From assembly GCA_038321865.1 (NCBI GenBank), contig JBBQFH010000039.1:1-21367 (forward strand): a stretch of 21,367 bases of DNA, given 5' to 3'. Both the position numbers and the translations under genes were made by a program. Positions 1 to 19,423 of this stretch are shown piece after piece. The DNA comes from Gemmatimonadales bacterium (lineage in GTDB: Bacteria > Gemmatimonadota > Gemmatimonadetes > Gemmatimonadales > GWC2-71-9). The notes beneath the pieces are model-generated. The model made no database searches. It was not told the DNA's origin and was given only the letters and a program-made list of their open reading frames with translations. Every line of letters begins with the position of its first letter. The first letter of the stretch is position 1.

Positions 1-195
1 GAACGTCCCGTACGTGTTGTTGTCCGAGAAGTAGGCTTCCTGCGCCGTCTCCAGGTTCCGGAGGTCGGTCTTGATCGAGGCCAGCTTGGCCTTGTCCTTC
101 GTCGCGGCGAACTTCGGAATCGCGATCGCGGCAAGAATGCCGATGATGACGACCACGATCAGAAGCTCGATCAGGGTAAAGCCCTTGCGGTTCAT
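1..195 (-). CDS. Type IV pilin (prepilin with N-terminal methylation motif); runs off the left edge
   Basis: Not in the ORF track; translated by hand from ATG at 195: MNRKG^FTLIELLIVVVIIGILAAIAIPKFAATKDKAKLASIKTDLRNLETAQEAYFSDNNTYGTF... Class III signal (G^FTLIE, E5); GGAGG RBS at 205-209. Confidence 0.95.
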   Translation of the reverse strand, partial: MNRKGFTLIELLIVVVIIGILAAIAIPKFAATKDKAKLASIKTDLRNLETAQEAYFSDNNTYGTF

Positions 196-272
196 GATGC
201 GATTCCTCCGAGGGTGATGATGACGGCCGTCGCCGGCATGGCAGACGGAACCGGACTCAGGCAACCGGAAAG

Positions 273-1923: not shown

Positions 1924-3120
1924 ATGCCGATCGCAGCGCACCGACTCCCCACCGCCATTCTGCTCTGCACACTGCTCGCCTGCGCCGATCCCGCCCCGCC
2001 GAGGGAGGCGGCGCAGGTGGCGGCTACGCCGGCGCCGGATTCCACGGCCGATGGCCAGCGCATCTTCCGCCACGAGACCTTTGGCGACGAGCAGTTCTGG
2101 ACCGACACCGCGCGCATGCAGGAAGTCATCCAGGCGTCGGTCAGTCCCAAGGTGGCGCTGTCGGTCGGCCTCAAGGTGGACGCCGAGGCGGTCCCGCCCG
2201 ATGTTGCCGCGGGGATCAAGAGCGGGAAGGTCGATCTCACGAGTCCCGCCACGACCGTCGCGCTCCTGAAGCTGGGTGCCGTTGTCGGAGTCGAGGGCAG
2301 GGTGGAGACGGTGGGGGGTCGGGACACGCTGGTCCGCGTCGGCATCACTTGCGCGCTCTGCCATTCGACGGTGGACAACTCGTTCGCGCCGGGGATCGGC
2401 AAGCGGCTGGACGGCTGGCCCAACCGGGATCTCGACGTCGGCGCGATCATCGCCCTCTCGCCCGCCGTCACGCCGGCCCAGAAGGCGGTCTACAAGTCAT
2501 GGGGGGCCGGCAAGTACGATCCGCGCTACAACATTGATGGGAAGAGCACCCCGCTGGTGCTGCCGCCGGCATACGGACTCGCCAGCGTCAGGAACGAGAC
2601 GTATACCGCCGAGGGGCCGATCTCCTACTGGAATGCGTACGTCGCCGTGACCCAAATGCACGGGCACGGCAACTTTTCCGACCCCCGGCTGCACATGGAC
2701 ATCAGGCAGTCTCCCGACATGGTGACATCCAGGCTTGCGGCGCTGCGCGACTATCAGCACAGCATCCAGGCGCCGGTTGCGGCGGCGGGGAGCTTCGATG
2801 CGGTCGCGGCCGGACGGGGGCGCACCGTGTTCGATCGGAGCTGCTCCTCCTGCCATGTGGGCGGCTCGGGCACCGACAACAACGATGGCACGCTGCACGC
2901 GCCGTCGGAGACGGGAATGGACGGCGGCTACGCCATGCGGACGGCGAACCACATGTATCGCACGACGCCGCTTCGCGGGCTGGCGCAGCATGCGCCGTAT
3001 TTCCACGACGGCAGCGCGGCGACGCTTACCGAAGTGGTGCGGCACTACAACCGGGTTCGGCACCTCGGCCTGAACGACCTTCAGCAGAAGGATCTGGTGG
3101 AATACCTGAAGGGGCTGTAA
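1924..3120 (+). CDS. Di-heme c-type cytochrome lipoprotein, bCcP/MauG-superfamily-like C-terminus (398 aa)
   Basis: GGAGG RBS at 1914-1918; lipobox-like LLA^C. Two CxxCH motifs: CALCH (2350-2364) and CSSCH (2842-2856). C-terminal YRTTPLRGL...APYFHDGS.ATL..VV.HY...L..YLKGL. Confidence 0.85.
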   Translation: MPIAAHRLPTAILLCTLLACADPAPPREAAQVAATPAPDSTADGQRIFRHETFGDEQFWTDTARMQEVIQASVSPKVALSVGLKVDAEAVPPDVAAGIKSGKVDLTSPATTVALLKLGAVVGVEGRVETVGGRDTLVRVGITCALCHSTVDNSFAPGIGKRLDGWPNRDLDVGAIIALSPAVTPAQKAVYKSWGAGKYDPRYNIDGKSTPLVLPPAYGLASVRNETYTAEGPISYWNAYVAVTQMHGHGNFSDPRLHMDIRQSPDMVTSRLAALRDYQHSIQAPVAAAGSFDAVAAGRGRTVFDRSCSSCHVGGSGTDNNDGTLHAPSETGMDGGYAMRTANHMYRTTPLRGLAQHAPYFHDGSAATLTEVVRHYNRVRHLGLNDLQQKDLVEYLKGL

Positions 3121-3147
3121 CCGTCGCGGGGGATCGCAGCCGGCGAT
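3023..3147 (+). repeat. Direct repeat copy 1 (3' end of cytochrome gene plus ~27 nt downstream)
   Basis: Aligns without gaps to 9764-9888 (offset 6741). 16 mismatches in 125 nt by hand count; 40-nt identical core 3093-3132. Confidence 0.95.
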
Positions 3148-3189
3148 CACCGCGCCGCGCAAGCTGTGCCGTGCCCCGTTCGCGGGTGA

Positions 3190-3423
3190 TCACGATGCCT
3201 TCCGCGGCGTGGACGGGTTCGCCGGTTCGTCCGTGCATCCGAAGGCATGCAGCCGGCCGAGGATCCGCTCCAGCGGGCAGAACTGCGTGAAGCTCGACTG
3301 CACGAGGTTCAGGCCCACGAACGCCGTGAAGAGAAACCACAGCGGATTCACCAGCCAGCCGAGCGCGACTGACGCCAGAATGAAGGAGCCGGCGAAGCGC
3401 CGGATGATCCGGTCATTGCACAT
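3190..3423 (-). CDS. YgaP-like / DUF2892 small membrane protein (77 aa)
   Basis: ATG 3423 with AAGGA RBS. MCNDRIIRRFAGSFIL...WFLFTAFVGLNLVQSSFTQFCPLERIL shows the DUF2892 pattern (R..AG, two TM segments, FCP). Confidence 0.9.
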   Translation of the reverse strand: MCNDRIIRRFAGSFILASVALGWLVNPLWFLFTAFVGLNLVQSSFTQFCPLERILGRLHAFGCTDEPANPSTPRKAS

Positions 3424-3463
3424 GTTGCCTTCCTTTCGCCGCGTCGTGCGGCGCATCGGGGGG

Positions 3464-3754
3464 TTAGAAGAACCGCTCCACCGGCAGTTCGGCCACGTGC
3501 AGGCGCTCGCCCGGTACGGCGGCTCCGGCCAGGTCCCGGAGCGCGGCCGACAGCGGAGCCACGGCATCGTCGGCCAGCACGGTGAAATACACCTGCGAGT
3601 CCCCGGGCCACGCCCGGCTTCCCTCGCGCCGTCCGCTGCGCCCAGCGCCGTGCGCGTTGGAGAGCTGGGTCCAGCCGATGGCGCCGTGGTCATCGAGCAG
3701 GCCAGGAATCAGCTCGGGCCGCGGCCCGCCGTAGATTATCACCAGCATTCTCAT
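3464..3754 (-). CDS. P-II-like transporter-associated small protein (PG0541-like, 96 aa)
   Basis: ATG 3754 overlaps the RND stop (ATGA). MRMLVIIY...GWTQLSNAHGAGRSGRREGSRAWPGDSQVYFTV...LHVAELPVERFF resembles the GlnB/P-II fold with a GxGxxG loop. Confidence 0.75.
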   Translation of the reverse strand: MRMLVIIYGGPRPELIPGLLDDHGAIGWTQLSNAHGAGRSGRREGSRAWPGDSQVYFTVLADDAVAPLSAALRDLAGAAVPGERLHVAELPVERFF

Positions 3755-6700
3755 GGCGTAATACCCTCCGGATGCTCGCGGCGGCGCAGCTCCCAGTAGA
3801 GGAGTGGCACGACCACCATCGTGAGGAGCGTCGCCACGACGGCCCCGCTCATCAGCGCCACGGCCAGCCCCTGAAAGATCGGATCGAGCACCATCACGAG
3901 CCCGCCGACGACGACGGCCGCGGCCGTGAGCGCGATGGGGCGGAACCGGACGGTCCCGGCCTCGACCACTGCGTCCGCCAGCGACGCCCCGCGCTCCTCG
4001 GCGAGCTGAATGAAGTCCACCAGGAGGATCGAGTTCCGCACGATGATGCCGGCCAGGGCGATCATGCCGATCATCGAGGTGGCGGTGAAGAACGCACCGG
4101 TCAGCGCATGCCCGGGCAGGATGCCGATCAGCGTGAGCGGGATCGGCGCCATGATGACGAGCGGAATCCTGAACGACTGGAACCACCCGACCACCAGGAC
4201 GTAGATCAGCACCAGCGCGACGGCAAACGCGATCCCCAGATCGCGGAAGACTTCGAGGGTGACCTGCCATTCGCCGTCCCACTTGAGTGCGGTCTCGTCG
4301 AGCCGGTCAGGCTGGACGGCGTTGTAGCGCCGGATTTCCGCCCCGGCGACCCGCACCGCGTCGAGCCGACGATTCATCGCGAGGATGGCATAGACCGGCG
4401 ACTCGATCGCGCCCGCCACGTCGCCAGTGACGTAGATGACCGGGCGGAGATCCCGGCGGAACCGCGCGCTCTCCCGCGTCGACGAGTCCACCGTGACGAA
4501 GCGCGCGAGCGGTCGCGGCCCGTCGGCCGTCGCCACCGGCAGCGCGAGCAGCGCCTCGGCGTTTGTGCGGCTCTCGAGGGCGAGCCGGGGTACGATGGCG
4601 ACGCCCTCGCGGGCGTCCGGCTGGGCCGCGAGCCCGACGATGCGGCCGGACTGCGCCAGGGAGACGGCCTGAGTGATCTGCTCGACGCTGGCTCCGGCGG
4701 CAGCCGCGCGTACCCGGTCTACCCGGAAGGTGAGCTGAGGCTGCGGCGCTTCGATGGTCCAGTCCACGTCCACGACGCCGGGTGTGGACTCGAAAACCGC
4801 CTTCACGCGGCGCGCCGCCTCGAGCCGGCTGGCGTCATCACCGGCATACACTTCGGCGACCAGCGTCGAGAGCACCGGCGGGCCCGGCGGGATCTCGGCG
4901 ATCTTGGCGCTGGCCTGATAGCGCCGGGCGATCGAGTCGATCACCGGCCGGACAGCCACCGCGATCGCGTGACTCTGCCGCTTGCGATCGCCCTTCGGGC
5001 GGAGATTCACCTGCAGGTCGGCGACGTTGGGGCCGCGGCGGAGGAAATAATGCCGCACCAGCCCGTTGAAGTTGAACGGCGCGGCCGTGCCTGCATACAC
5101 CTCGGTGCTCGCCACCTCGGGCACCGAGCGGAGATACCCGGCGATGTCGGCGCCGAGCGCCGCGGAGGTCTCGAGCGTCGTTCCTTCCGGCAGATCGAGC
5201 ACCACCTGGAATTCGCTCTTGTTGTCGAACGGCAGCATTTTCACCGAGACCAGCCGCACGGCCACCAGTCCCATCGAAAGCACCAGCAGGCCCAGCACAC
5301 CGCCGTAGAACGCGCGGCGGCGCCCGCGGCCGGCCATGAGCCCAGTCATGACCCGCGCGTAGAACCGGCCGAACCGCGCGCTCCCGCCTCCGGCCGTGTG
5401 CGCGGCGGTGTGCCCCCTGAGGAGGCGGAGTGCGAGATACGGCGTGATGATGAACGCCACCGCGAGCGAGGCGAGCATCGCCACGGAGGCGCCGACCGGA
5501 ATCGGCCGCATGTACGGCCCCATCATTCCGCTCACGAACGCCATCGGCAGGATCGCGGCGATCACCGTGAAGGTGGCGAGGATCGTCGGGTTGCCGACTT
5601 CATCCACTCCCTCGACCGCGGCGGTCTCGGCGTCCTTGTCGCCCATGGCGAGGTGGCGGTAGATGTTCTCCACCACGACGATGGCGTCGTCCACCAGAAT
5701 GCCGATCGAGAAGATCAGGGCGAACAGGGTGATGCGGTTGAGGGTGTATCCGAGCGCGTAATACGCAAAGAGCGTGAGCGCGAGGGTCACCGGCACCGCG
5801 ACCAGCACCACCAGCGCCTCGCGCCAGCCGAGGAAGAGCCAGATGAGGAGCGTCACCGAGACGGTGGCGATGCCGAGGTGCAGGATGAGCTCGCTCGCCT
5901 TGTCGCTCGCCGTCTCCCCGTAGTTCCGGGTCACGGTGACACGGACATCGGAGGGCAGGAGCCGGCCTCGGGCGGCGTCCACCCGCTCGAGCACCGCCTC
6001 CGCCACCCGGGTGGCGTTCGCGCCGTGGCGCTTCGCGACGCTGATGGTCACGGCGCTCTCAGGGGCTCCCGTCCCCGCGGCGTGGGAGACGTAGTCGGCC
6101 CGCTCCCCGAACTCCTCTGTCACGGCAGCGACATCACGTACGGACACCGCCGTCCCGCCCCGGGTGGAGACGACGACACTCCCCACATCGGCGGCGGTGC
6201 GGAGGGGCGCGCCGACCCGAACCAGGTAGACCCGGTCGCCGCTGGTCAGCTCCCCGGCGGGCAGCCGGGCGTCGGCGGCCTGGAGCGCCATGCCCACCTC
6301 ACCCGGCGTCACGCCCGCAGCCGTCAGCCGCATTGGATCCAGCGTCACCCGCATCTGCAGCGGCTGTCCCCCGGTCACATAGGTATCGGCCACGTCCGGC
6401 ACCGTGCGCACCTCGTCGCCGAGATGGCTGGCGAGCTGTCGCAGCTCGTTCGAGCCGTAGGCGGGCGAGTGCACCGTGAGGGTCACGATGGGGACGTCGT
6501 CGATGGAGTGTGGCTTGACCAGCGGCGGCGTCGCGCCGAAGGGGGCTTCGTCGGCCGCCGCCAGCAACTTGGCGTGCACCTTCACGACGCTCGCTTCCTG
6601 GTTCTCGCCGACCCGGAAGCGCACGGTGACGAGGGCGAAGCCGTCGCCCGCGGTCGAATAGACGTGCTCCACGCCGGGCAGCTCATACATCCGGCGCTCG

Positions 6701-6909
6701 ATCGGACGCGCCAGCAGATTCTCGGTTTCGGTCGGCGTCGCGCCGGGCAGCGCCACCAGGACGTCGATCATGGGGACCGAGATCTGCGGCTCCTCCTCCC
6801 GCGGCGTCGCCAGAATCGCCAGCAATCCGACCGCGAGGGAGGCGAGGGTGATGAGCGGCGTGAGCTTCGAGCGAAGAAAGCGCCCCGCGATGCGCCCGGC
6901 GAGACCCAT
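3751..6909 (-). CDS. RND efflux transporter permease, AcrB/AcrD/AcrF family (1052 aa)
   Basis: ATG 6909, 1 nt after the MFP stop. Motifs PREEEPQI, GILVDDAIVVVENI (TM4 DD), GIIVRNSILLVDF and RFRPIALT. Confidence 0.95.
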   Translation of the reverse strand: MGLAGRIAGRFLRSKLTPLITLASLAVGLLAILATPREEEPQISVPMIDVLVALPGATPTETENLLARPIERRMYELPGVEHVYSTAGDGFALVTVRFRVGENQEASVVKVHAKLLAAADEAPFGATPPLVKPHSIDDVPIVTLTVHSPAYGSNELRQLASHLGDEVRTVPDVADTYVTGGQPLQMRVTLDPMRLTAAGVTPGEVGMALQAADARLPAGELTSGDRVYLVRVGAPLRTAADVGSVVVSTRGGTAVSVRDVAAVTEEFGERADYVSHAAGTGAPESAVTISVAKRHGANATRVAEAVLERVDAARGRLLPSDVRVTVTRNYGETASDKASELILHLGIATVSVTLLIWLFLGWREALVVLVAVPVTLALTLFAYYALGYTLNRITLFALIFSIGILVDDAIVVVENIYRHLAMGDKDAETAAVEGVDEVGNPTILATFTVIAAILPMAFVSGMMGPYMRPIPVGASVAMLASLAVAFIITPYLALRLLRGHTAAHTAGGGSARFGRFYARVMTGLMAGRGRRRAFYGGVLGLLVLSMGLVAVRLVSVKMLPFDNKSEFQVVLDLPEGTTLETSAALGADIAGYLRSVPEVASTEVYAGTAAPFNFNGLVRHYFLRRGPNVADLQVNLRPKGDRKRQSHAIAVAVRPVIDSIARRYQASAKIAEIPPGPPVLSTLVAEVYAGDDASRLEAARRVKAVFESTPGVVDVDWTIEAPQPQLTFRVDRVRAAAAGASVEQITQAVSLAQSGRIVGLAAQPDAREGVAIVPRLALESRTNAEALLALPVATADGPRPLARFVTVDSSTRESARFRRDLRPVIYVTGDVAGAIESPVYAILAMNRRLDAVRVAGAEIRRYNAVQPDRLDETALKWDGEWQVTLEVFRDLGIAFAVALVLIYVLVVGWFQSFRIPLVIMAPIPLTLIGILPGHALTGAFFTATSMIGMIALAGIIVRNSILLVDFIQLAEERGASLADAVVEAGTVRFRPIALTAAAVVVGGLVMVLDPIFQGLAVALMSGAVVATLLTMVVVPLLYWELRRREHPEGITP

Positions 6910-6910
6910 A

Positions 6911-7942
6911 TCAGCGCCCTCCCTCGTGCGGCTGCGGGACAAAGACCCGGTCGCCGGCGCGCAGACCGGAGAGGACCTCGACGGCGCCGTCCGTCGCGGG
7001 GCCGAGCCGCACCCAGCGACGCTCCAGCCCGACCGCGGTCCGGATGCGCACCCCGGTCAGATCGCCTTCACGCACGAAGGCGGCGTCCGGAATCAGGATG
7101 CCGACCCGCGTGCCGCGCGGGATACGCAGCGTGGCCGCTCCGCCGGCCGGGTGCTCGCCGCGGGAGTTGGCCACCAGCGCGTTCACTGTGTAGAGCGCAC
7201 CGGTCGCCGTTGGGGCGACGCCTTCGACCAGCGCCTCCACCGGCTCGTTCTCGATGGTGCCACGCAGGCGCGCTCCCGGCGCAAGCAGGCCGGCCGCGCC
7301 CGGCGCAACCGTCACGGAAATCCGGAGTCGGGATCCGTCCACCACGGTAACCACCGGAGCACCCGGTGCGACGAACGCCCCCGGGTCGACGAAGCGCCGT
7401 GAGACGACACCGGCGAAGGGCGCCCTGAGCTCGGCGTACCCGCGCATCACGGTCACCTCGCTCGCCGCCGCCCGCGCGGTCCGCACGCCCGCCTCGGCCC
7501 GGGCCAGCCCGGTCTCCACCGCATCGAGCTGCGCCCGGGTCGCCGCGCTGTCGGCATACAGCGCCTGGAAGCGGCGCGCCTGAGTGGCGGCGTCGCGCTG
7601 AACGGCCTCCGCCTCCGCGATCCCCGCCTGCGCCTGCGACTGGCGCGCCGTCAGGTCACGCGCATCGATCCGCGCGAGCAGCTGGCCCGCCCGCACCGGC
7701 TCGCCCTCGTGCACCGGCACGGCGGTCACGGCGCCCATGAGCTTCGTGCTCAGCGTCGCGCGCTGCACCGGCTCGGCGGTGCCGGCGGCCTCGAGGACGG
7801 CCGGTATCATCGTGTCCCGCACCTCGATCACGCTGCCGTCGAGCGCCGCCGTCGCGGCGCCCCGCACCGGCTTCGCCGGCTTCCGACCGCAGGCGGCCAG
7901 CGCTGTGAGGCCGCCGACCAGGAGCACCGTCGTCAGTCGCAT
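6911..7942 (-). CDS. RND periplasmic adaptor (MFP) lipoprotein (343 aa)
   Basis: ATG 7942, 1 nt after the TolC stop; LAA^C lipobox. Lipoyl-half motifs GAVTAVPVHEGEPVRAGQLLARID and LRAPFAGVVSRRFVDPG; C-terminal VEVLSGLRAGDRV. Confidence 0.93.
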   Translation of the reverse strand: MRLTTVLLVGGLTALAACGRKPAKPVRGAATAALDGSVIEVRDTMIPAVLEAAGTAEPVQRATLSTKLMGAVTAVPVHEGEPVRAGQLLARIDARDLTARQSQAQAGIAEAEAVQRDAATQARRFQALYADSAATRAQLDAVETGLARAEAGVRTARAAASEVTVMRGYAELRAPFAGVVSRRFVDPGAFVAPGAPVVTVVDGSRLRISVTVAPGAAGLLAPGARLRGTIENEPVEALVEGVAPTATGALYTVNALVANSRGEHPAGGAATLRIPRGTRVGILIPDAAFVREGDLTGVRIRTAVGLERRWVRLGPATDGAVEVLSGLRAGDRVFVPQPHEGGR

Positions 7943-7943
7943 G

Positions 7944-9302
7944 CTACCGCTCCGTTGAGTCGAGACTGGTGAGGATTGCCAGGGTCTGGCCGGCGGCGCG
8001 CCGACCTTCGGCCAGCGCGACGATCGCCTGATAGCGCGCCTCCGCGAAGCCGAGGCGCGCGCCGGTCTCCTCGGTGGCTGCATCGAAGAGCGCAACGGCC
8101 GTGGCGAGACCGCCTTCGTATTTCCGGGTGACGATCCGGTGCGCCTCCGCGCTCTGCCCGACGGCCTCCCCGGTGAGCGACATACGCGCGCGGGCCACTT
8201 CCAGGGCGGTGGCCGCCTGCTGCACCTCCAGGCGGCCGCGTGCGGCGGCCGCCTCCGCCGCGGCTGCCGCGGCGTCGCGCCGCGCAGCCGCACTGCGGCG
8301 CCCAGCGAGCTCGGCACCACCGCTGAACGGGGACCAGCTGACCATGATACCGGCGGTCCACGCATCGCGGCCGCCGAACGGCGCGTGCGGCGCGTTCCAG
8401 TCGAGCCGGCCGAACGAATTGACGCGAGGGAGGAACAACGCGTTCGCCCGCTGGTGGTCGGCGGCGGCGGCATCGCGCCCCAGGCGTGCGGCACGGACGT
8501 CGTCACGGTCCGCCGCGGCGCCGGTGTCGGCGGCTGCCGCGAGCGCGGCGATGGCGGTTGTGTCGGGGAGCCGATCGGGAAGCACGAACCCGATATCCGC
8601 CGGTGCCCCCAGCGCGAGCGCGAGCTGGGCCCGGGCGAGGCGGACCGCGCCGCGGGCGGCGATCAACTGGAGTTCCACCTGTCCCGCCCGCACGGCGGCG
8701 AGCAGCGCGTCGGAGCGGGTGACCAGCCCGTTGCGATACTGCGACTCGGCGACGCGCTGATGGGAATGCGCGGCGCGCGCCGCGCTGTCGAGGGCGGCGA
8801 GCGCCTCACCGGCCAGCACCGCGCCGTAGTAGGCGCGCACGACAGCGAGCTGGGTTCCGGCACGGGTCCACGACTCCGCCGCGCGGGCGGCCGCGCCGGC
8901 GCGGAGGGCGGCGCGGCGCCCGAAGAAGGCGTCGGCGTTGAAGATCGGTTGTTCGACGATGAGCGCAGAGGTGAGATTCCCGATGGCGGCGGGATCGTTG
9001 AGCCGCGCGGGCTCGAAGGCGCTCGGCGTCACGCTGCGCTGGCGGAGCGTCGCGCCGAACGCGCCGAGCGGGTCGGTGGTCCGGACGTAGCCACCTTCGA
9101 TCCGGACGGTTGGCAGGACGCCGCGGAGCGCGAGACCCGCGTTCCCTTCCGCCGCCCGGGCATCGGCCGCGGCGATCCGGTTGGCGTACGCACCCCCGCC
9201 GGCCAGCCGCAGCGCGTCGGCGAGCGACAGGGCCTGTGCGGCGAGACCGGCGGGCGCGGAGCCCGACACGAGCAGGACGGCGATCAGACGGCGAAACGAC
9301 AT
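7944..9302 (-). CDS. TolC-family outer membrane efflux protein (452 aa)
   Basis: Signal peptide then LSLADALRLA; repeated OEP helices (YRNGLVTRSDAL / YEGGLATAVALFDA); first gene of the tripartite operon. Confidence 0.92.
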   Translation of the reverse strand: MSFRRLIAVLLVSGSAPAGLAAQALSLADALRLAGGGAYANRIAAADARAAEGNAGLALRGVLPTVRIEGGYVRTTDPLGAFGATLRQRSVTPSAFEPARLNDPAAIGNLTSALIVEQPIFNADAFFGRRAALRAGAAARAAESWTRAGTQLAVVRAYYGAVLAGEALAALDSAARAAHSHQRVAESQYRNGLVTRSDALLAAVRAGQVELQLIAARGAVRLARAQLALALGAPADIGFVLPDRLPDTTAIAALAAAADTGAAADRDDVRAARLGRDAAAADHQRANALFLPRVNSFGRLDWNAPHAPFGGRDAWTAGIMVSWSPFSGGAELAGRRSAAARRDAAAAAAEAAAARGRLEVQQAATALEVARARMSLTGEAVGQSAEAHRIVTRKYEGGLATAVALFDAATEETGARLGFAEARYQAIVALAEGRRAAGQTLAILTSLDSTER

Positions 9303-9360
9303 GCGGGCTCACGATTCAGGCCAGGTTTTGCGGCACTGGCGGGGCCAGGCCAGCGTGATT

Positions 9361-9389
9361 AGTATATAACGATATAGTTGTATAGTCAA
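9361..9389 (-). promoter_or_regulatory. Sigma70 promoter of the efflux operon overlapped by an imperfect palindrome (putative ArsR operator)
   Basis: Minus strand TTGACT(9389-9384)-N17-TATACT(9366-9361). Dyad TATATAAC-gatata-GTTGTATA (9363-9384) spans the spacer. Confidence 0.85.
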
Positions 9390-9436
9390 TCAATTCTTCC
9401 TCCCACTCTTTCTCCGGCGTCCTCGCCGAGGTTTTC

Positions 9437-9769
9437 ATGGCCCGCAAGGAGTTGTCCCCAGAGTTGCTGGCCGGCATTGCCGACCGCTTCAAGGCGCTGG
9501 CCGAGCCGGCGCGGCTGCAGCTGCTTCAGCGCCTCCGCGCGGGCGACGCGACCGTGTCCGCCCTGGTCGAGCGAACCGGCCTGACCCAGGCGAACGTCTC
9601 CAAGCACCTCCAGCTTCTCCTCAGCCTTGGCTTCGTCGCCCGGCGGAAAGAAGGCCTCTACGCCTTCTACCGCCTCGCCGACGACGACGTCTTCCGCCTC
9701 TGCGACCTCATGTGCGGCCGGATGGACCGCGAGCTCAAGGCGCGGCAGCGCATCCTCGCCTCCCGCTGA
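9437..9769 (+). CDS. ArsR/SmtB-family transcriptional repressor with C-terminal CxxxC (110 aa)
   Basis: FKALAEPARLQLL...TQANVSKHL..L...GFV..RKEG...YRL winged HTH. Its only cysteines are in LCDLMC. Divergent from tolC. Confidence 0.93.
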   Translation: MARKELSPELLAGIADRFKALAEPARLQLLQRLRAGDATVSALVERTGLTQANVSKHLQLLLSLGFVARRKEGLYAFYRLADDDVFRLCDLMCGRMDRELKARQRILASR

Positions 9770-9888
9770 CCGACGTAGTGCGGCACCACGATCGCGTCCG
9801 GCACCTCGGCCTGAGCGACCAGCAGCAGAAGGCTCTGGTGGAATACCTGAAGGGGCTGTAACCGTCGCGGGGGCTCCCAGGCGGCGGT
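9764..9888 (+). repeat. Direct repeat copy 2: orphan 3' fragment of the cytochrome gene
   Basis: Encodes LTDVVRHHDRVRHLGLSDQQQKALVEYLKGL* versus LTEVVRHYNRVRHLGLNDLQQKDLVEYLKGL* in the intact gene. It has no start or upstream part and contains the arsR TGA (9767-9769). Confidence 0.95.
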
Positions 9889-9900
9889 ACATTATCGCGC

Positions 9901-11040
9901 ATGCCAGATCGCATCCGAATGGCCATCGCCGGACTCGTGATTCTCGCCGCGGGCGCGGCGGTGGCCGCGTTCGGTAGCCGGCGGGCGCCGGGGACCACCC
10001 GGACCTACTACGTCGCGGCCGACGAGGTGGAGTGGGACTACGCGCCGACCGGCCGCGACGAGATGATGGGCCACGCGCTCGACTCGGTCGAGATGAGTGT
10101 GAGCAACGGGCCGGCCGGGATCGCGAGCCGGTTCCTCAAGGCACGCTACCGCGAATACACCGACAGCACCTTTCGCGTGCTCAAGCCGATCCCGCCGGAA
10201 TGGGCCCATCTCGGGATCATGGGCCCGGTGCTCCGCGCGTCGGTGGGCGATACGCTGCGTGTCGTCTTCCGCAATCACGCGCGCCATCCGTTCAGCATGC
10301 ACCCGCACGGCGTGTTCTACGACAAGGGCTCGGAAGGGGCGCCGTACGCCGACGGCGCGAGCGGCGCGGACCACGAGGATGACGCGGTGCCGCAGGGCGG
10401 GACGCATGTCTATCTCTGGCCGGTACCCGGGCGCGCCGGTCCGGGACCGAACGATCCGTCGTCCATCGTCTGGGCCTATCACTCGCACGCGCATGAGTGG
10501 CGCGACGTGAACGCCGGGCTCATCGGGCCCATCATCGTCACCCGGCGTGGCGAGCTGGCGGCGACCGGCCGGCCGCGTGGGGTGGACCGCGAGTTCGTGA
10601 CGCTCTTCGGCGTCTTCAACGAGAACGACGGCTCCTACACATCGGAAAATCTCCAGCGCTACACCGGCGACACCCTCCGCAGCACGAAGAAGGGCCCGAT
10701 CCTCTTCTCCGGTGTCGGATACCAGGCGATCAACGGCTTCGTATACGGCAATCTCCCCGTCTCCACCATGCGTATGCGCGAGGGCGAGCACGTCCGCTGG
10801 TATGTGTTCAGCGCCACGACGGCGGACGACTTCCACAGCCCGCACTGGCACGGCGCCACGCTGCTGGTGGGCGGCCAGCGGACCGACGTCGCGAATCTTG
10901 CGGTGCCGCTCCTCATGCTCACCGGCGACATGGTGCCCGACTCGCCGGGCATCTGGATGCTTCACTGCCACGTGGCCGAACATATGGCGGCCGGGATGAC
11001 GGCGCGGTTCGAAGTCGTGTCGAGGGACGCAAGCTTTTGA
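9901..11040 (+). CDS. Secreted two-domain multicopper oxidase, ceruloplasmin-like (379 aa)
   Basis: Hydrophobic signal peptide. Copper motifs MHPHG, WAYHSH, HSPHWHG and HCHVAEHMAAGM (T1 Cys/His/Met only in domain 2). Confidence 0.92.
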   Translation: MPDRIRMAIAGLVILAAGAAVAAFGSRRAPGTTRTYYVAADEVEWDYAPTGRDEMMGHALDSVEMSVSNGPAGIASRFLKARYREYTDSTFRVLKPIPPEWAHLGIMGPVLRASVGDTLRVVFRNHARHPFSMHPHGVFYDKGSEGAPYADGASGADHEDDAVPQGGTHVYLWPVPGRAGPGPNDPSSIVWAYHSHAHEWRDVNAGLIGPIIVTRRGELAATGRPRGVDREFVTLFGVFNENDGSYTSENLQRYTGDTLRSTKKGPILFSGVGYQAINGFVYGNLPVSTMRMREGEHVRWYVFSATTADDFHSPHWHGATLLVGGQRTDVANLAVPLLMLTGDMVPDSPGIWMLHCHVAEHMAAGMTARFEVVSRDASF

Positions 11041-11769: not shown

Positions 11770-12147
11770 TCACGCGGCGGGAGGAAGGGGCACCAGCCGG
11801 GTCACATGCCGCATCAGGTCGGCGAGGTCGAACGGTTTCGGCAGGAAGGCGACCCACGCGGGCAGATCGAGCGGCGCCGAGTACGCCGACATCATCAGGA
11901 TCGGCATGTCGCCGTGGTGCCGGCGGATGGTGCCGGCGAGGACGGTGCCGTCCATCCTCGGCATCCGCACGTCGGTGATCACGAGCTCCACGGTCGAGCC
12001 GCGGAGCAGCTCGAGCGCTTCGAGTCCGTCGGTGGCCTCGACGGCGCGATAGCCCGCCCCATCGAGCGCCCGGCGCAGCATCGTCCGCAGCACGGGCTCG
12101 TCGTCGACGACCAGGACCGTGGGCCTGTGAGGTACCTGGGTTTGCAT
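11770..12147 (-). CDS. Single-domain response regulator (CheY-like receiver, ~125 aa)
   Basis: VLVVDDE...LVITDVRMPRMDG...ILMMSA...FLPKPF with all catalytic residues. Start at ATG 12147 (alternative 12159). Confidence 0.9.
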   Translation of the reverse strand: MQTQVPHRPTVLVVDDEPVLRTMLRRALDGAGYRAVEATDGLEALELLRGSTVELVITDVRMPRMDGTVLAGTIRRHHGDMPILMMSAYSAPLDLPAWVAFLPKPFDLADLMRHVTRLVPLPPAA

Positions 12148-12202
12148 GCGCGGCAACATATCACCGACCGGGAGGCGCCGTAAGCTGGCGGTCAGACTGG
12201 CC

Positions 12203-12901
12203 TCACTCCCCATCGAGCCGGTATCCAACGCCCGGCTCCGTGGTCAGCAGGCGGGGCCGCGCCGGGTCGTGTTCGAGCTTGTGCCTGAGCTGCCCCATGT
12301 ACACCCGCAGGTTCTGGGTCTGGCTCACGTAACTGGGGCCCCATACCAGCTCCAGGAGCTGGCGGTGAGTCATGACGCGTCCCGGGTGGCGCACCAGCAC
12401 CGCCAGCAGCTTGTACTCGGTCGGGGTCAGGTGCACTTCGCGGCCGTTCGCGAAGACCCGCCGTGCGGTCAGGTCCACTCGAACGCCGTGCGCGGCAAAG
12501 GCGGCGTCCTCCGATCCGCGATCCGCCGCGCGGGCGTGCCGAAGCGCGACACGGATCCGGGCCAGCAGCTCCACCGTGCCGAATGGTTTGGTCAGGTAGT
12601 CATCTGCCCCCGCGTCGAGCGCCGCCACCTTGTCGTGCTCCCGTCCCCGGGCGGAGATGACGATGATCGGCGCCCGGGTGAGCGTGCGCAGCTTCCGCGT
12701 CAGATCCACGCCATCGGCATCGGGGAGCCCGAGATCGAGCAGGATCACGTCGGGGTTCCGGCCGGCGGCCTGGGCTGCCGCCTCCCGGCCGGTACCGGCC
12801 TCGATCACCGTGTACGCGCTGGTACGGAGCGCCGTCACGAGGACCCGCCGCATCGCGACGTCGTCCTCCACCACCAGCACCGCCGCATCCGTGCCGGTCA
12901 C
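12203..12901 (-). CDS. kdpE: KdpE-type OmpR-family response regulator (232 aa)
   Basis: GTG 12901 overlaps the kinase stop (GTGA). LLDLGLPDADG, ALDAGADDYLTKPFG, LTPTEYKLL and LRVYMGQLRHKLEHDPARPRLLTTEPGVGYRL are KdpE signatures. Confidence 0.92.
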   Translation of the reverse strand: MTGTDAAVLVVEDDVAMRRVLVTALRTSAYTVIEAGTGREAAAQAAGRNPDVILLDLGLPDADGVDLTRKLRTLTRAPIIVISARGREHDKVAALDAGADDYLTKPFGTVELLARIRVALRHARAADRGSEDAAFAAHGVRVDLTARRVFANGREVHLTPTEYKLLAVLVRHPGRVMTHRQLLELVWGPSYVSQTQNLRVYMGQLRHKLEHDPARPRLLTTEPGVGYRLDGE

Positions 12902-13998
12902 ACCGCTTCCGCCTCCGCCTCCGCCGGCACAGCCGCACCGGGCACGACGTCGAGCGGCAGAGTGAAACGGAAAGCCGCGCCGCCGTTCGCGCTCCGCTCG
13001 ACCCAGATCCTGCCACCGTGCGCCGTGACGATGCCCCGGCAGATCGCCAGGCCGAGGCCGGAACCCGACGGCGGGGTGACGCCGGCCGGCGTGGCCCGAT
13101 AGAACTTTCGGAACACCGCTTCGCGCTCGTCCGGCGCAATGCCGGGCCCGTCGTCCGCCACCTCCACCGTCACGGTTGCGCCGGTGTGCGCCGCGCTCAC
13201 CCGGATCGCCGCGTGGGCCGGGGAGTAGCGCGCGGCGTTCTCGAGCAGGTTCACGAATACCTGTTCCAGCAGGACTTCGTCCACCGACACGAGCGGCAGG
13301 TTGTGCGGAAGCGCGACCGCCACCCGGTCGCTCCCAATCAGCGGCTCCAGCCGGATGAGCGCCACGCCGAGGCATTCCTCGAGCGGCTGCCAGCTGCGGT
13401 GGACGGCGAGCGCCCCGGTCTCGAGCCGCATCATATCCAGCAGGTTGGTGACGAGCTGGGCCAGCCGGTGCGACTCATCCACCACTGCTTCGGCCAGCTC
13501 GCGTCGTTCGCCGGGCGACAGCGCGCCGGCATCGGCCGCCAGTACCGTCGCGGCACCCTCGATGGTGCCGAGCGGGGTGCGGAGGTCGTGGGACAGGGAG
13601 CTCAGGAGCGCGGTACGGAGCTGCTCGGCTTCGATCGCCGCGCGCGCGCCGGCCGCCGCCTCCCCCTGTTCGCGCACCATGCCGGTGAGCCGACTCATCG
13701 TGATCGCGACCGCCAGCATGACCACGAAGGTCGGCAGGTAGCGCGCGTCCCCAATGTCGAGGGTGTAGTAGGGCGGCACGAACAGGAGGTCGAAAAGCAG
13801 CATGCTGAGCACGGAGGCAAGGAGCGCGGGTCCGCGCCGGACCCGCGTTGCGATCACCACGACCGCGAGCAGCAGCAGCATCGCGATGTCGATGAGCTGG
13901 AGGCGATCGCGCAGGGCGAGGCACGCGAAGCTCGCCGCGACGATGATCGCCGCGGCGCCGGCGTACTGACCAAGTGGACTCTGCTTCGAATCGCGCAT
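12898..13998 (-). CDS. kdpD: KdpD-like sensor kinase, truncated: 4-TM (DUF4118) + HisKA + HATPase only (~366 aa)
   Basis: Four TM helices with FVPPYYTL; EQLRTALLSSLSHDLRTPL H-box; EQVFVNLLENAARYS; DDGPGI; GSGLGLAIC. Only 73 nt separate it from the divergent gene, so there is no room for N-terminal KdpD/Usp domains. Confidence 0.85.
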   Translation of the reverse strand: MRDSKQSPLGQYAGAAAIIVAASFACLALRDRLQLIDIAMLLLLAVVVIATRVRRGPALLASVLSMLLFDLLFVPPYYTLDIGDARYLPTFVVMLAVAITMSRLTGMVREQGEAAAGARAAIEAEQLRTALLSSLSHDLRTPLGTIEGAATVLAADAGALSPGERRELAEAVVDESHRLAQLVTNLLDMMRLETGALAVHRSWQPLEECLGVALIRLEPLIGSDRVAVALPHNLPLVSVDEVLLEQVFVNLLENAARYSPAHAAIRVSAAHTGATVTVEVADDGPGIAPDEREAVFRKFYRATPAGVTPPSGSGLGLAICRGIVTAHGGRIWVERSANGGAAFRFTLPLDVVPGAAVPAEAEAEAV

Positions 13999-14026
13999 CG
14001 GGGGTGTAAGGATTCTATAAGGATTC
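13999..14026 (-). promoter_or_regulatory. KdpE-type binding site (11-bp-period direct repeat)
   Basis: TAAGGATTC at 14007-14015 and 14018-14026. Minus strand CTTATA-GAATC-CTTACA-CCCCCG parallels the E. coli KdpE site as I recall it, TTTATA-CTTTT-TTTACA-CCCCG. Confidence 0.75.
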
Positions 14027-14071
14027 GCCTTCCGGGGCTGATTCCGGGACCGGGAGCGTACAGCTTCGGGC

Positions 14072-16063
14072 ATGACCTCCCCGAGCGCTCCGCCGGCGTC
14101 CGTGGCCCGACGGGTCGGCCGCGCGGTCTTCGGCCGCCCCCGCGATCTGGCCGACAGCGGGCTCTTCCATCGCCTGGCCCTGATCCCGTTCCTCGCCTGG
14201 GTCGGGCTCGGCGCCGACGGCCTGTCGTCGTCCGCCTATGGCCCGGAGGAGGCGTTCAAGGCGCTCGGCGCCTATCCCTTCCTCGCGCTGGTGCTCGCCG
14301 CTGTGATGGCGTTCACCGTCCTCCTCATCTCGGCCGCCTATAGCCGGATCATCGAGGAGTTTCCGACCGGCGGCGGCGGCTACGTGGTCGCCTCGAAGCT
14401 GCTGGGCGCCCGGGCCGGGGTCACTTCGGGCAGCGCGCTCCTCGTGGACTACGTGCTGACGATCACGACCTCGGTCGCCGCCGCGGGCGACGCCATCTTC
14501 AGCTTCGTGCCTCCCGAATGGCACGGCGTGAAGCTCAGCGTCGAGGTGCTGTTCCTCCTCCTGCTCACTACCCTCAACATCCGGGGCGTCCGCGAGTCGG
14601 TGCTCGCGCTCCTGCCGCTCTTCCTGCTGTTCCTCATCACCCACGCTGTGGTGATCGGCGGCGGCGTAATCGGCCACCTGCCGCAACTGTCCGGGACCGT
14701 GGCAGGGGTGCGCGAGAGCTACGCCCGCGGGACATCGCTGCTCGGCATGGGCGGGCTCGCGCTGCTCTTTCTCCGGGCCTACAGCCTGGGCGGCGGCACC
14801 TATACCGGCATCGAGGCGGTGTCCAACGGCCTGCCGGTGATGCGGGAGCCGAGGGTGCGGACCGGGAAGCGGACCATGGCGTACATGGCGTTCTCGCTGG
14901 CGATCACCGCCAGCGGGCTCCTCCTGTGCTACCTGCTCTGGCAGGTGACGCCGGTGGCCGGCAAGACGATGAACGCGGTGCTGGTGGAGCGGATCACGCG
15001 GGGGCTGCCGTTCGGGCACGCGTTCTCGGTGCTGACTCTCTTCACCGAGGGGGCGCTGCTGGTCGTCGCCGCGCAGGCGGGATTCCTGGATGGCCCCCGC
15101 GTGCTGGCCAACATGGCGGTGGACAGCTGGGCGCCGCACCGCTTCGCCTCGCTCTCGGAGCGGTTGACCACCAAGAACGGCATCGTGCTGATGGGTGGTG
15201 CGGCGCTGGTGGCGCTGCTGTATACGCGGGGGAGCGTGGGACACCTGATCGTCATGTACTCAATCAACGTGTTTCTCACCTTCTCGCTCTCCATGCTGGC
15301 GATGCTGCGCTTCTGGATCGGGGCCGGACGGGCGCGGCCGGAGTGGCGGCAGCGCGCCGTGCTCTTCGCCTCCGGGCTGCTGCTCTGCGTCACGATCCTG
15401 GCGGTGACGGTGTTCGAGAAATTCGCGCAGGGCGGGTGGGTGACGGTGGTCGTGACCAGCCTTCTCATCGGCGGCTTCATGCTGATCCGGCGCCACTACG
15501 ACCGGGCGGCGGCGGAAATGAACCGCCTCTTCCAGGAGCTGGGCGACCTGCCGTCTGCCGGAGGCCCAGGGCGGTCGCCGGGTGCGCTCGATTCGAAACA
15601 GCCGGTGGCGGTGGTGCTGGTGGCGTCGTACGGCGGGATCGGGATCCACACCCTGCTCAACGTCGTTCGGGCCTTTCCGGGCTTCTACCGGGGCGTGGTG
15701 TTCGTGACGGTGGGCGTCGTGGATTCGGGTGAGTTCAAGGGTGAAGGCGCCGTGGCCGATCTGCGGCGGCGTACGGCGGCCACGCTCGACAGCTACGTGG
15801 CGCTAGCCCGGACGCTGGGCCTGCCGGCCGAAGGGCGGATGGCCGTGGGCACTGATGTCATCGACGAGGCCGAACGGCTTTGCGACGAGGTGGCGCGCGA
15901 CTACGCGCGGCCGACGTTCTTCGCCGGGAAGCTGATCTTCCAGCGTGAAACATGGTGGCAGCGATTTCTGCACAATGAGACCGCGTTGGCCCTGCAGAAG
16001 CGGCTGCAGTGGGCCGGCCGGACGATGGTAACCATGCCGGTGCGCGTGCGGGAGGCGGCGTGA
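14072..16063 (+). CDS. APC-superfamily transporter, KimA-like K+/H+ symporter (663 aa)
   Basis: About 12 TM helices plus a cytoplasmic C-domain. Motifs ADGLSSSAYGPEE, GGGGYVVAS, LLVDYVLT and TGIEAVSNG correspond to KimA DALSSVAYG, DYILT and TGVEAISN. Confidence 0.85.
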   Translation: MTSPSAPPASVARRVGRAVFGRPRDLADSGLFHRLALIPFLAWVGLGADGLSSSAYGPEEAFKALGAYPFLALVLAAVMAFTVLLISAAYSRIIEEFPTGGGGYVVASKLLGARAGVTSGSALLVDYVLTITTSVAAAGDAIFSFVPPEWHGVKLSVEVLFLLLLTTLNIRGVRESVLALLPLFLLFLITHAVVIGGGVIGHLPQLSGTVAGVRESYARGTSLLGMGGLALLFLRAYSLGGGTYTGIEAVSNGLPVMREPRVRTGKRTMAYMAFSLAITASGLLLCYLLWQVTPVAGKTMNAVLVERITRGLPFGHAFSVLTLFTEGALLVVAAQAGFLDGPRVLANMAVDSWAPHRFASLSERLTTKNGIVLMGGAALVALLYTRGSVGHLIVMYSINVFLTFSLSMLAMLRFWIGAGRARPEWRQRAVLFASGLLLCVTILAVTVFEKFAQGGWVTVVVTSLLIGGFMLIRRHYDRAAAEMNRLFQELGDLPSAGGPGRSPGALDSKQPVAVVLVASYGGIGIHTLLNVVRAFPGFYRGVVFVTVGVVDSGEFKGEGAVADLRRRTAATLDSYVALARTLGLPAEGRMAVGTDVIDEAERLCDEVARDYARPTFFAGKLIFQRETWWQRFLHNETALALQKRLQWAGRTMVTMPVRVREAA

Positions 16064-18349: not shown

Positions 18350-19423
18350 TCAGCTCGCCACGGGGCCGGGCACGGCGCCGGCCGGGAAAAACCGGCGGGC
18401 CCAGAGCGAGACGTACACCAGCGCCACGAGCACCGGCACCTCGATCAGCGGGCCCACCACGGCGGACAACGCCTCGCCCGACGTGATGCCGAAGGTCGCG
18501 ACGGCGACGGCGATCGCGAGCTCGAAATTGTTGCCGGCGGCGGTAAAGGCGAGCGACGCACTGGCGGGATAGGCGAAGCCCATTCGCCGGGCCAGCACGA
18601 GGGACGTGCCGAACATCACGAGGAAATAGACGACCAGCGGTGCGGCGATCCGGAGCACGTCAAGCGGCAGGGCGAGGATCCGGTCGCCCTGCATGGCGAA
18701 CATCAGGACGATCGTGTAGAGCAGGCCCAGCAGCGCCGTCGGCCCGAACCTGGGCATGAAGGTGCCGTCATACCACGCGTCGCCCCGGCGGGTGACGAGG
18801 ATGCGGCGGGTGAGGAATCCCGCCACCAGCGGGATACCGAGAAAGATGATGACGCTTTTCGCGATCTGGGCCATGGACACGTGGACTACTGCCGCCGCCG
18901 ACCCGAACCACCCCGGCACCACCGTCAGAAAGAACCAGCCCATCACCGAGTAGGTGAAGATCTGGAAGACCGAGTTGAGCGCGACCAGGACGGCCGCGAG
19001 CTCGCTCGAGCCCCGGGCGAGCGAATTCCAGATCAGCACCATGGCGATGCAGCGCGCGAGTCCGATCAGAATCAGCCCGTTGCGGTACGCGGGCAGGTCG
19101 GGGAGAAAGAGCCAGGCGAGCCCGAACATCACCAGCGGGCCGATGATCCAGTTCAGGACCAGCGAGGTCCCCAGGAAGCGGGTGTCGCGCGCGTGCTGGC
19201 CGATGGACTCGTACCGCACCTTGGCCAGCACCGGGTACATCATCCACAGGAGGCCGACGGCGATCGGCACCGACACGCCGGCGACCTTGACCTGGTCCAG
19301 CACCGCGCCCAGGTCAGGCCGGAGACGTCCGAGCAGCAGGCCCAGCGCCATCGCGCCAACGATCCACGCCGGCAGGAACCGGTCGAGGAAGGAAAGGCGC
19401 TGGCCGCCGGCGGCAGGGCTCAA
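18350..19423 (-). CDS. acr3: ACR3-family arsenite efflux transporter (357 aa)
   Basis: LSFLDRFL, GLLWMMYPVLAKV, GLARCIAMVLIW (conserved Cys), GNNFELAIAVA, GPLIEVPVL. TTG start overlaps the upstream stop. Confidence 0.96.
   Translation of the reverse strand: MSPAAGGQRLSFLDRFLPAWIVGAMALGLLLGRLRPDLGAVLDQVKVAGVSVPIAVGLLWMMYPVLAKVRYESIGQHARDTRFLGTSLVLNWIIGPLVMFGLAWLFLPDLPAYRNGLILIGLARCIAMVLIWNSLARGSSELAAVLVALNSVFQIFTYSVMGWFFLTVVPGWFGSAAAVVHVSMAQIAKSVIIFLGIPLVAGFLTRRILVTRRGDAWYDGTFMPRFGPTALLGLLYTIVLMFAMQGDRILALPLDVLRIAAPLVVYFLVMFGTSLVLARRMGFAYPASASLAFTAAGNNFELAIAVAVATFGITSGEALSAVVGPLIEVPVLVALVYVSLWARRFFPAGAVPGPVAS

What the first reader, a model, noticed from the sequence alone, without database searches (positions are those of the whole stretch)
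3023..9888. Efflux cassette bracketed by a duplicated 3' end of a cytochrome gene, with no integrase
Seen: the last 32 codons of the di-heme cytochrome gene plus ~27 nt downstream (3023-3147) recur in direct orientation at 9764-9888. The offset is 6741 nt, there are no indels, 16/125 positions differ, and a 40-nt core across the stop is identical. Seven of the 12 coding mismatches are at third codon positions and the orphan frame stays open to the same TAA. The repeats enclose exactly one complete unit (arsR plus tolC-mfp-RND-PII-like-ygaP), and the arsR stop lies inside copy 2. Inference: the copies diverged while both were coding, as expected if a circle carrying a homologous 3' end integrated Campbell-style and restored the target gene. 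A crossover in the core would rejoin the cytochrome to the oxidase and release or amplify a 6,741-bp unit with arsR intact.
Basis: partly seen in the sequence, partly recalled or inferred. Interest (0 to 1): 0.8.

Follow-up and report, generated by a model that had tools for sequence, protein, structure and literature searches.

The report
Recombination scar around an efflux operon
A six-gene efflux-pump block in an uncultured Gemmatimonadales bacterium sits between an intact cytochrome gene and a decaying copy of that gene's last 125 bases, which is likely the scar of a single old insertion by ordinary recombination, a known and recurring kind of footprint rather than a new mobile element.

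Summary
The repeat is real as described: 125 nt, offset 6741, 16 mismatches, 40-nt identical core. Both junctions lie on read-derived contigs with flat depth (7-9.6x), so no amplification is seen; that run is probably the source sample.

The orphan copy has decayed, losing an invariant Tyr (147/147 homologues) and a conserved Asp, but keeps family-typical residues at four other sites. 'Diverged while both coding' is only mildly favoured (likelihood ratio 2-13), because the working gene alone can supply such changes.

The arsR-orphan join lies on a probable 6-nt microhomology at arsR's native stop. The cassette is native to the genus (82% nt in a congener, in another context). None of 22 relatives' cassettes showed a gene-end duplication at both ends, and 0 of 173 cytochrome loci lie beside the pump genes. 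No empty site or close relative was found.

Best reading (0.45): a one-off single-crossover capture of a non-replicating circle from a close relative, which has a laboratory precedent in E. coli. Local duplication with loss, or deletion of a second full copy, are close rivals. The scan noted the same footprint in several other genomes. Ordinary; low interest.

The parts
1924..3120 (+). Intact secreted c-type cytochrome gene with two CxxCH motifs (398 aa), from a large uncharacterised family weakly like di-haem cytochrome c peroxidases; target of the duplication
   Evidence: ORF; Pfam Cytochrom_C and RoxA-like weak; NCBIfam below cut-off; PDB di-haem peroxidases E 5e-5; 7890 relatives at E<=1e-100 among 8000 scored
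3023..3147 (+). Repeat copy 1: last 31 codons plus stop of the cytochrome and 27 nt of tail
3093..3132 (+). 40-nt identical core in copy 1 (partner 9834-9873); candidate crossover stretch (inferred)
   Evidence: P=0.021 by random placement; read-derived contigs break at it
3132..3148 (+). Perfect 6-bp hairpin between the convergent cytochrome and ygaP genes; 3 of the 4 tail mismatches fall in its stem and break it in copy 2
   Evidence: read from the sequence
3190..3423 (-). ygaP-like (DUF2892) small membrane protein
   Evidence: PF11127 E 6e-13
3464..3754 (-). Small transporter-associated protein (PG0541-like; 'PII-like' not confirmed)
   Evidence: NF045581 35.6 bits, cut-off 45; no Pfam hit
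3751..6909 (-). RND permease (AcrB/AcrD/AcrF family)
   Evidence: PF00873 E 5e-158; 90% aa to G003
6911..7942 (-). Periplasmic adaptor (MFP)
   Evidence: TIGR01730 above cut-off
7944..9302 (-). TolC-type outer-membrane efflux protein
   Evidence: PF02321 E 3e-34
9361..9389 (-). Sigma-70-like promoter for the pump operon, overlapped by an inverted repeat at about 9363-9382 (likely ArsR operator)
   Evidence: 1 found, 0.1 expected; the strict pattern also matched 2 of 22 relatives' loci
9437..9769 (+). ArsR/SmtB repressor; its last codon and stop overlap the first 6 nt of copy 2
   Evidence: NF033788 above cut-off; close homologues in G214 and G296 end at the same length
9764..9769 (+). Right junction: probable 6-nt microhomology (CGCTGA) shared by arsR's native Arg-stop and the cytochrome fragment
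   Evidence: G214 arsR ends in Ser-Arg-stop at the same position; junction lies inside one read-derived contig, 8721-9863; microhomology is inferred
9764..9888 (+). Repeat copy 2: start-less, decayed cytochrome 3' fragment whose tail runs into the multicopper-oxidase promoter
9880..9903 (+). Region just upstream of the oxidase start with a -10-like TACATT, similar in congener G004, which has no cytochrome there; likely a leaderless promoter
   Evidence: not picked up by the consensus scan
9901..11040 (+). Two-domain multicopper oxidase
   Evidence: PF07731/PF07732; 81% aa in G004 in a different context

Best explanation
The efflux operon lies between an intact cytochrome gene and a decayed copy of its last 125 bases, and likely got there once, long ago, when a non-replicating 6.7-kb DNA circle from a close relative integrated by a single ordinary crossover. 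Steps: (1) Shown: both junctions and both alleles are in read-derived contigs, and no recombinase gene lies inside. (2) Inferred: the ancestral site was cytochrome-tail-oxidase, because copy 1's tail stays alike right up to the oxidase's -10 box. (3) Inferred: a related strain carried the cassette straight behind its own cytochrome allele. A fragment of it closed into a circle at a 6-nt microhomology joining arsR's stop to codon 368 of the cytochrome. (4) Inferred: RecA-type single crossover, most easily in the 40-nt identical core, inserted the circle and left the target gene whole. (5) Shown: the orphan carries substitutions at an invariant Tyr and a conserved Asp, and no amplification is seen; inferred: it has decayed since the event, roughly 4% neutral change. 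The operon itself is probably an ArsR-repressed pump for reactive sulfur or related stress (inferred from neighbours in relatives), native to the genus.
For: Topology of an insertion-duplication. The orphan holds family-typical residues at 4 of 6 changed amino acids: D370 99/147, D376 39/147, S384 67/147, Q386 25/147, against copy 1's E 6, N 98, N 11, L 0. The five closest proteins carry D376 in 5 of 5 and D370 in 4 of 5. Only 2 of 12 coding differences are damaging, against 3.6-5.7 expected if the copies began identical; likelihood ratio 1.8-12.7 for prior divergence. Central 40-nt identical run, P=0.021. Tail similarity of 11/15 beyond the core (P 3e-4 before allowing for post-hoc choice) reaches sequence shared with G004's oxidase upstream region. 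Probable microhomology at the join. comEC and dprA are in the genome, though they are also in 10-11 of 14 control genomes. Laboratory precedent: 109-950 bp gene-end duplications from re-circularised donor DNA, about 10 times commoner than HFIR (PMC3240628).
Against: No donor (cytochrome next to cassette) and no empty site were found: 0 of 173 cytochrome loci carry the pump genes and 0 of 29 relatives' oxidase loci carry a cytochrome within 1.5 kb. All of these are distant (83% aa or less). The divergence test is weak (P 0.03-0.25 for the null). The cassette's 82% nt identity to G003 is only just above the 74-81% of the long (1 kb or more, best-scoring) core stretches, so no foreign origin shows. 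acr3 and an omp gene lie near the cassette here and in 2 of 22 relatives, which fits long local residence. The model needs a donor with a prior rearrangement, and only 125 nt of 87% homology.
Confidence: 0.45

Rival explanations
1. Local tandem duplication followed by differential loss. A segment running from cytochrome codon 368 through the oxidase to a then-downstream cassette was duplicated with its join at the 6-nt microhomology. Deletions then removed the oxidase from one copy and the cassette from the other. The two 125-nt copies began identical and drifted.
For: Needs no donor; duplication-then-loss is a described route to gene-order change (PMC7055797, abstract). Identical-at-birth is not rejected (P 0.03-0.25). 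The cassette is native to the genus and near acr3/omp here and in G003 and G082. A second gene-end duplication with a frameshifted orphan is on contig C59.
Against: Fewer damaging changes than expected (ratio 2-13 against). By my reading of homologue codons, 7 of 11 polarisable changes fall on the constrained working copy, P 0.013-0.05. No remnant of a second cassette was found to the right or elsewhere in the genome. The pump's orientation relative to acr3/omp is opposite to that in G003 and G082, so an inversion is also needed.
Confidence: 0.2
2. Decay of a full second copy. Two complete, slightly diverged cytochrome genes once flanked the cassette, and a deletion at the microhomology removed most of the second, fusing its 3' end to arsR's stop.
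For: Explains prior coding divergence and the microhomology. Some genomes carry two full cytochrome paralogues (G034 and G045; L183 and L229).
Against: In those genomes the second copy matches the query about 3-14 points less well than the first and none lies beside the cassette. It does not explain the central identical core, and it needs an additional event.
Confidence: 0.2
3. Homology-facilitated illegitimate recombination. A linear donor fragment was anchored by homology in or before the cytochrome and joined illegitimately at arsR's stop to the resident allele's last 125 nt.
For: HFIR joints typically show 3-10 bp microhomology (PMC3240628 introduction). Competence genes are present.
Against: HFIR usually gives a deletion, not a duplication, and inserts of about 1 kb (same passage). 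In that study it was 10 times rarer than circle integration.
Confidence: 0.07
4. Remnant of an integrase-driven element (e14/icd type) that targeted the cytochrome 3' end and later lost its integrase.
For: Same gene-plus-orphan-end topology as icd/icdC (PMC13626634, passages). The genome has tyrosine and serine recombinases that could act in trans.
Against: No recombinase match on this contig. The target is patchy: full-length in 12 of 60 relatives. The first mismatch is at base 5 of the repeat. The core pattern has 0 hits and the cytochrome 0 loci in viral contigs. The intact arsR runs straight into the orphan, leaving no room for element-end DNA.
Confidence: 0.04
5. Assembly artefact, or a chimera of two strains joined across the 40-nt core.
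For: Read-derived contigs (k=31 graph) cannot phase across the core. Only one run holds the locus.
Against: Both alleles and both junctions lie on contigs with 0-2 differences. Depth is flat: 7.0-8.5 inside, 7.0-9.6 outside. The alternative graph path would need a replicon-less circle at one copy per chromosome.
Confidence: 0.03

Closest known systems
Single-crossover (Campbell-type) integration of re-circularised donor DNA, giving 109-950 bp duplications of a gene end (E. coli lacZ; PMC3240628, passages and Discussion read)
   Same: Insert bracketed by a direct duplication of a gene's end of the same size range; no site-specific recombinase; an illegitimate join at one border.
   Different: Natural rather than engineered. 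The copies are 87% identical, the orphan has decayed, and neither donor nor empty site was observed.
Prophage e14 in E. coli icd, leaving the icdC C-terminal pseudogene (PMC13626634, passages read)
   Same: Intact gene, cargo, then a diverged orphan 3' end; recombination between the copies would restore an empty site.
   Different: e14 is a prophage with site-specific, SOS-induced excision at a core gene. Here there is no integrase or phage gene, the target is a patchy accessory gene, and excision in the core would leave the protein unchanged.
Homology-facilitated illegitimate recombination (HFIR)
   Same: One homologous border and one microhomology border.
   Different: HFIR normally deletes recipient DNA and inserts about 1 kb; here there is a duplication and 6.6 kb.
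Duplication followed by differential gene loss (SNAP model; PMC7055797, abstract read; PMC9016547, search listing only)
   Same: Rearranged gene order with a small duplicated leftover and no mobile element.
   Different: No second remnant of the duplicated segment was found.
ArsR-regulated reactive-sulfur operons (BigR/SqrR/YgaV with YgaP, rhodanese-dioxygenase, TauE); general description recalled, not from a call
   Same: ArsR plus YgaP-like protein; an MBL-rhodanese fusion and TauE lie beside the cassette in 8 of 22 relatives.
   Different: This ArsR scores far below the BigR cut-off (42.7 vs 155 bits) and has its two cysteines near the C-terminus. The pump's substrate is untested.

Membership tests
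Site-specific integrative element at a protein-gene 3' end (e14/icd type) | Integrase or recombinase encoded within or beside the element | tested here: not met
   Six enclosed genes are pump and regulator only; PF00589 matches are on C1, C21, C3, C2, C93 and PF07508 on C34, none on C39
Site-specific integrative element at a protein-gene 3' end (e14/icd type) | Displaced 3' end left as a pseudogene beyond the cargo, target gene intact | tested here: met
Site-specific integrative element at a protein-gene 3' end (e14/icd type) | Conserved target gene (recalled feature) | tested here: not met
   Full-length cytochrome in 12 of 60 relatives; no shared neighbour with this window among 173 loci
Site-specific integrative element at a protein-gene 3' end (e14/icd type) | Empty site in close relatives | tested here: inconclusive
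   No close relative exists in the collections searched
Campbell-type insertion-duplication by homologous recombination | Insert bracketed by direct copies of a target fragment, with the target restored | tested here: met
Campbell-type insertion-duplication by homologous recombination | Circle-closure join between cargo end and fragment start | tested here: inconclusive
   Join is present on a read-derived contig; the 6-nt microhomology is inferred from arsR homologues; a deletion or duplication join would look the same
Campbell-type insertion-duplication by homologous recombination | Donor with cargo adjacent to a homologous fragment, and recipient with an empty site | tested here: inconclusive
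   0 of 173 cytochrome loci beside the pump genes, 0 of 29 oxidase loci beside a cytochrome; all are distant relatives
Repeatedly mobile recombinase-free cassette | Same cargo bracketed by gene-end repeats at other sites or in other genomes | tested here: not met
   22 relatives' cassettes scanned: 8 had some bracketing repeat. Only G118's lay within 300 nt of both ends, and it is a multi-copy intergenic element. The other 7 begin 350 nt to several kb away on at least one side and were judged from coordinates and ORF lists
Repeatedly mobile recombinase-free cassette | Free circle or tandem amplification | tested here: inconclusive
   Flat contig depth, 7.0-8.5 inside vs 7.0-9.6 outside; contigs drop rare forms
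Composite transposon / IS-flanked unit | Transposase and terminal inverted repeats with a short target duplication | tested here: not met
   No transposase among the enclosed genes; flanking repeats are direct and cytochrome-derived
Integron gene cassette | attC site at the cassette end | tested here: not met
   The genome's attC-like pattern matched 16 times, all on contig C3; no BLAST hit between the window and C3 at E<=1e-5
BigR/SqrR-type persulfide sensor operon | Repressor passes the BigR family model | tested here: not met
   NF040642 42.7 bits vs cut-off 155
BigR/SqrR-type persulfide sensor operon | Derepression by sulfide or persulfide | not testable with these tools
   Needs an experiment; only the gene neighbourhood (8 of 22) bears on it

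The most novel reading that the evidence does not exclude
A reactive-sulfur efflux operon circulates among close Gemmatimonadales strains as a recombinase-free 6.7-kb circle addressed by a piece of a cytochrome gene. It pops in and out, and amplifies under stress, through a 40-nt core that is kept identical by repeated recombination.
Probability: 0.07. Interest if true: 0.6.

Novelty: new member of a known kind. Interest (0 to 1): 0.22.

Why it matters
As it stands, it is one more natural example of a cargo block bracketed by a duplicated gene end without an integrase. It is useful only as a data point on how accessory operons move by ordinary recombination in uncultured bacteria. It also shows that a third-position excess between a gene and its orphan does not by itself prove two coding alleles. 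It would matter more only if population reads showed live excision, amplification, or the same cassette with the same join in other strains.

Tried and rejected
Empty-site search: the family-wide DNA search (309 of 401 genomes scored, 92 not scored), the oxidase search and the cytochrome locus scans found no close relative, so the result is uninformative rather than negative.

Run X2 (5% of words) holds only other organisms' fragments and was not used as evidence. One search was laid at 85% likeness, so its binned-depth and joint tables are dominated by other organisms; no 6741-nt joint appears among the rows shown (133 rows were cut). I used only the table of long pieces.

G118's bracketing repeats looked like a second case but are multi-copy intergenic elements (part of that output was cut). 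A 9-nt match between arsR and the cytochrome, 7 nt off the repeat diagonal, was rejected as the join because the bases after it follow G003's arsR. A remnant of a DUF302 start after ygaP was considered; the similarity is too weak and DUF302 was not found in this genome.

Codon GC3 does not separate cassette, cytochrome and flanks (0.85-0.93 for most genes). Plasmids: 0 records cover 80% of the unit. Viral contigs: nothing. No tRNA in the window.

Literature searches for YgaP+ArsR+RND+sulfide and DUF2892+persulfide+ArsR returned 0 papers in the held library; this does not show absence from print. No supplements were read.
Full report
Setting. The window is a whole 21,367-nt contig (C39) of a 3.4-Mb, 68.7% GC, 90% complete genome. 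Its best-scoring named cytochrome relatives are Gemmatimonadota MAGs, and an earlier scan note on this genome calls it Gemmatimonadales.

Observation. Every stated number checks out: 3023-3147 against 9764-9888, offset 6741, no gaps, 16 of 125 mismatches, 12 coding with 7 at third positions, a 40-nt identical core at 3093-3132, and an orphan frame open to the same TAA. It is the only within-contig repeat at E<=1e-5. The enclosed genes are ygaP-like, a small PG0541-like protein, RND, MFP, TolC and ArsR, with no recombinase. The genome's tyrosine and serine recombinase matches are on other contigs.

Assembly. One public run (X1) holds 94% of the sampled words and is probably the source sample, so it is not independent. 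Its contigs cover 2400-3122, 3103-4087 and 8721-9863 with no differences and end at the 40-nt core, as a k=31 graph must. Both alleles, the tail-ygaP junction and the arsR-orphan junction are therefore in the reads. Depth is 8.4, 8.4, 8.47, 7.0 and 7.3 inside, and 7.1, 9.59 and 6.96 outside: no amplification. Phasing across the core was not shown, but the alternative path would need a replicon-less circle at one copy per chromosome.

Did both copies code? Ten codons differ: 4 are synonymous only, 6 change the residue. Against 147 distinct homologous gene ends, the orphan has family-typical D370 (99), D376 (39), S384 (67) and Q386 (25), where the working gene has E (6), N (98), N (11) and L (0). 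But the orphan also has H for an invariant Y375 (147 of 147) and A for D390 (130 vs 1). The five closest proteins (80-83% identical overall) carry D376 in 5 of 5 and D370 in 4 of 5. So the orphan is a fairly ancestral sequence that has decayed, by roughly 3-5% per site on two events.

I compared two models: identical copies at birth (neutral orphan, constrained gene), and previously diverged alleles. About half of all single changes would be damaging. Prior divergence is favoured but not established. The core length has P=0.021 under random placement, without allowing for the conserved C-terminal residues it covers.

Junctions. The close arsR homologues in G214 and G296 end at the same length as this one, G214 in Ser-Arg-stop, while G003's is two residues longer. 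The last Arg and stop here are therefore probably native and share 6 nt (CGCTGA) with the cytochrome fragment: a microhomology join (inferred). On the other side, copy 2's tail runs into a stretch also found upstream of G004's oxidase, which has no cytochrome there. Copy 1 still matches 11 of 15 bases beyond the core. This implies that both copies descend from a cytochrome-tail-oxidase arrangement, and that the cassette begins at about the oxidase's -10 box (inferred).

Relatives. No close relative was found. The cassette is widespread in the family: the arsR orthologue is in 60 of 300 genomes, and there are many long matches. Congener G003 has it at 82% nt over window 3234-9760, between acr3 plus DUF302 and an omp gene, with no cytochrome. 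Long core stretches between the two genomes are 74-81% identical, so the cassette is native to the genus. The cytochrome is patchy: full-length in 12 of 60 relatives.

Of 173 cytochrome loci (many short, at least one contig counted twice), none carries the pump genes or a second short 3' fragment; one has a 27% oxidase and one a 32% ArsR nearby. None of 29 relatives' oxidase loci has a cytochrome within 1.5 kb. Of 22 relatives' cassettes with wider flanks (three with under 3 kb on one side), 8 had some bracketing repeat. Only G118's is adjacent on both sides, and it is a multi-copy intergenic element. No plasmid record covers 80% of the unit, and viral contigs gave nothing. The cassette therefore shows no sign of repeated mobility. 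A second gene-end duplication with a frameshifted orphan is on contig C59 of this genome.

Mechanism. All viable models are one-off rearrangements that share the microhomology join. I commit to single-crossover capture of a non-replicating circle from a close relative (0.45). It explains the prior divergence, the central identical core and the join together. Such events were recovered in E. coli as 109-950 bp duplications of a gene end, about ten times more often than HFIR (PMC3240628; passages and Discussion read). comEC and dprA are present, as in most control genomes. Rivals are local duplication with differential loss (0.2; PMC7055797, abstract), deletion of a full second copy (0.2), HFIR (0.07), a stripped integrase element of the e14/icdC type (0.04; PMC13626634, passages) and artefact (0.03). 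A crossover in the core would give an unchanged cytochrome C-terminus followed by the oxidase, and a 6741-bp circle with intact arsR. That is possible at low frequency (own knowledge), but nothing here shows it happens.

Cargo. A strong promoter-like site for the pump operon overlaps an inverted repeat that also matched in 2 of 22 relatives, likely the ArsR operator. An MBL-rhodanese fusion and TauE flank the cassette in 8 of 22 relatives, suggesting reactive-sulfur stress. This is untested, and the ArsR fails the BigR model. Two literature searches for this operon returned nothing in the held library.

Novelty. It works like a Campbell insertion-duplication and fails membership tests for integrative elements, transposons and integron cassettes. 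The scan has noted the same integrase-free footprint in several other genomes (unchecked AI notes). Verdict: real, ordinary, a new member of a known kind; interest 0.22.

Noticed in passing
G000:C3:51305-52336 (L330) and C3:10933-63700: Chromosomal integron: an IntI-like tyrosine recombinase (PF00589, PF13495) next to an array. Sixteen attC-like sites matched my pattern, all with ATT/AAT where the canonical core is GTT/AAC (canonical form recalled). A whole array with a non-GTT core could merit its own look; a literature search gave 6 general papers, listing only.
   Followed up: partly
G000:C59:4-151 and 1487-1632: A second duplicated gene 3' end (94% identical, the second copy with a 2-nt deletion) bracketing a 337-aa membrane-protein ORF; the contig starts inside the first copy.
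   Followed up: partly
window 1924-3120: The cytochrome belongs to a very large (7890 of 8000 scored proteins at E<=1e-100), patchily distributed two-CxxCH family with only weak similarity to solved di-haem peroxidases. No characterised member turned up in these searches.
   Followed up: partly
window 9880-9903: A -10-like hexamer 7 nt before the oxidase ATG, similar in G004, suggests a leaderless transcript.
   Followed up: partly
window 12190-16063: A short KdpD-like kinase (DUF4118-HisKA-HATPase) with a KdpE-like regulator, divergent from an APC-family permease; the block recurs in congeners G002, G003 and G004.
   Followed up: no
window 1-211: The contig begins in a type IV pilin-like gene whose N-terminal DNA recurs at the starts of contigs C33, C48 and C57: multiple pilin copies, probably the cause of the assembly break.
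   Followed up: no
G000:C15:26809-33236: Three 114-nt palindromic intergenic elements (REP/MITE-like).
   Followed up: no
L313:5020-5251, 11780-12130, 12650-12853, 18500-18800 (G118): A multi-copy intergenic element flanks G118's efflux cassette on both sides.
   Followed up: partly
G000:C37:4990-5074 and C81:1101-1287: Short duplications of gene 5' ends with upstream DNA: a truncated start of a repeated gene on C37, and a lipoprotein-like start on C81.
   Followed up: no
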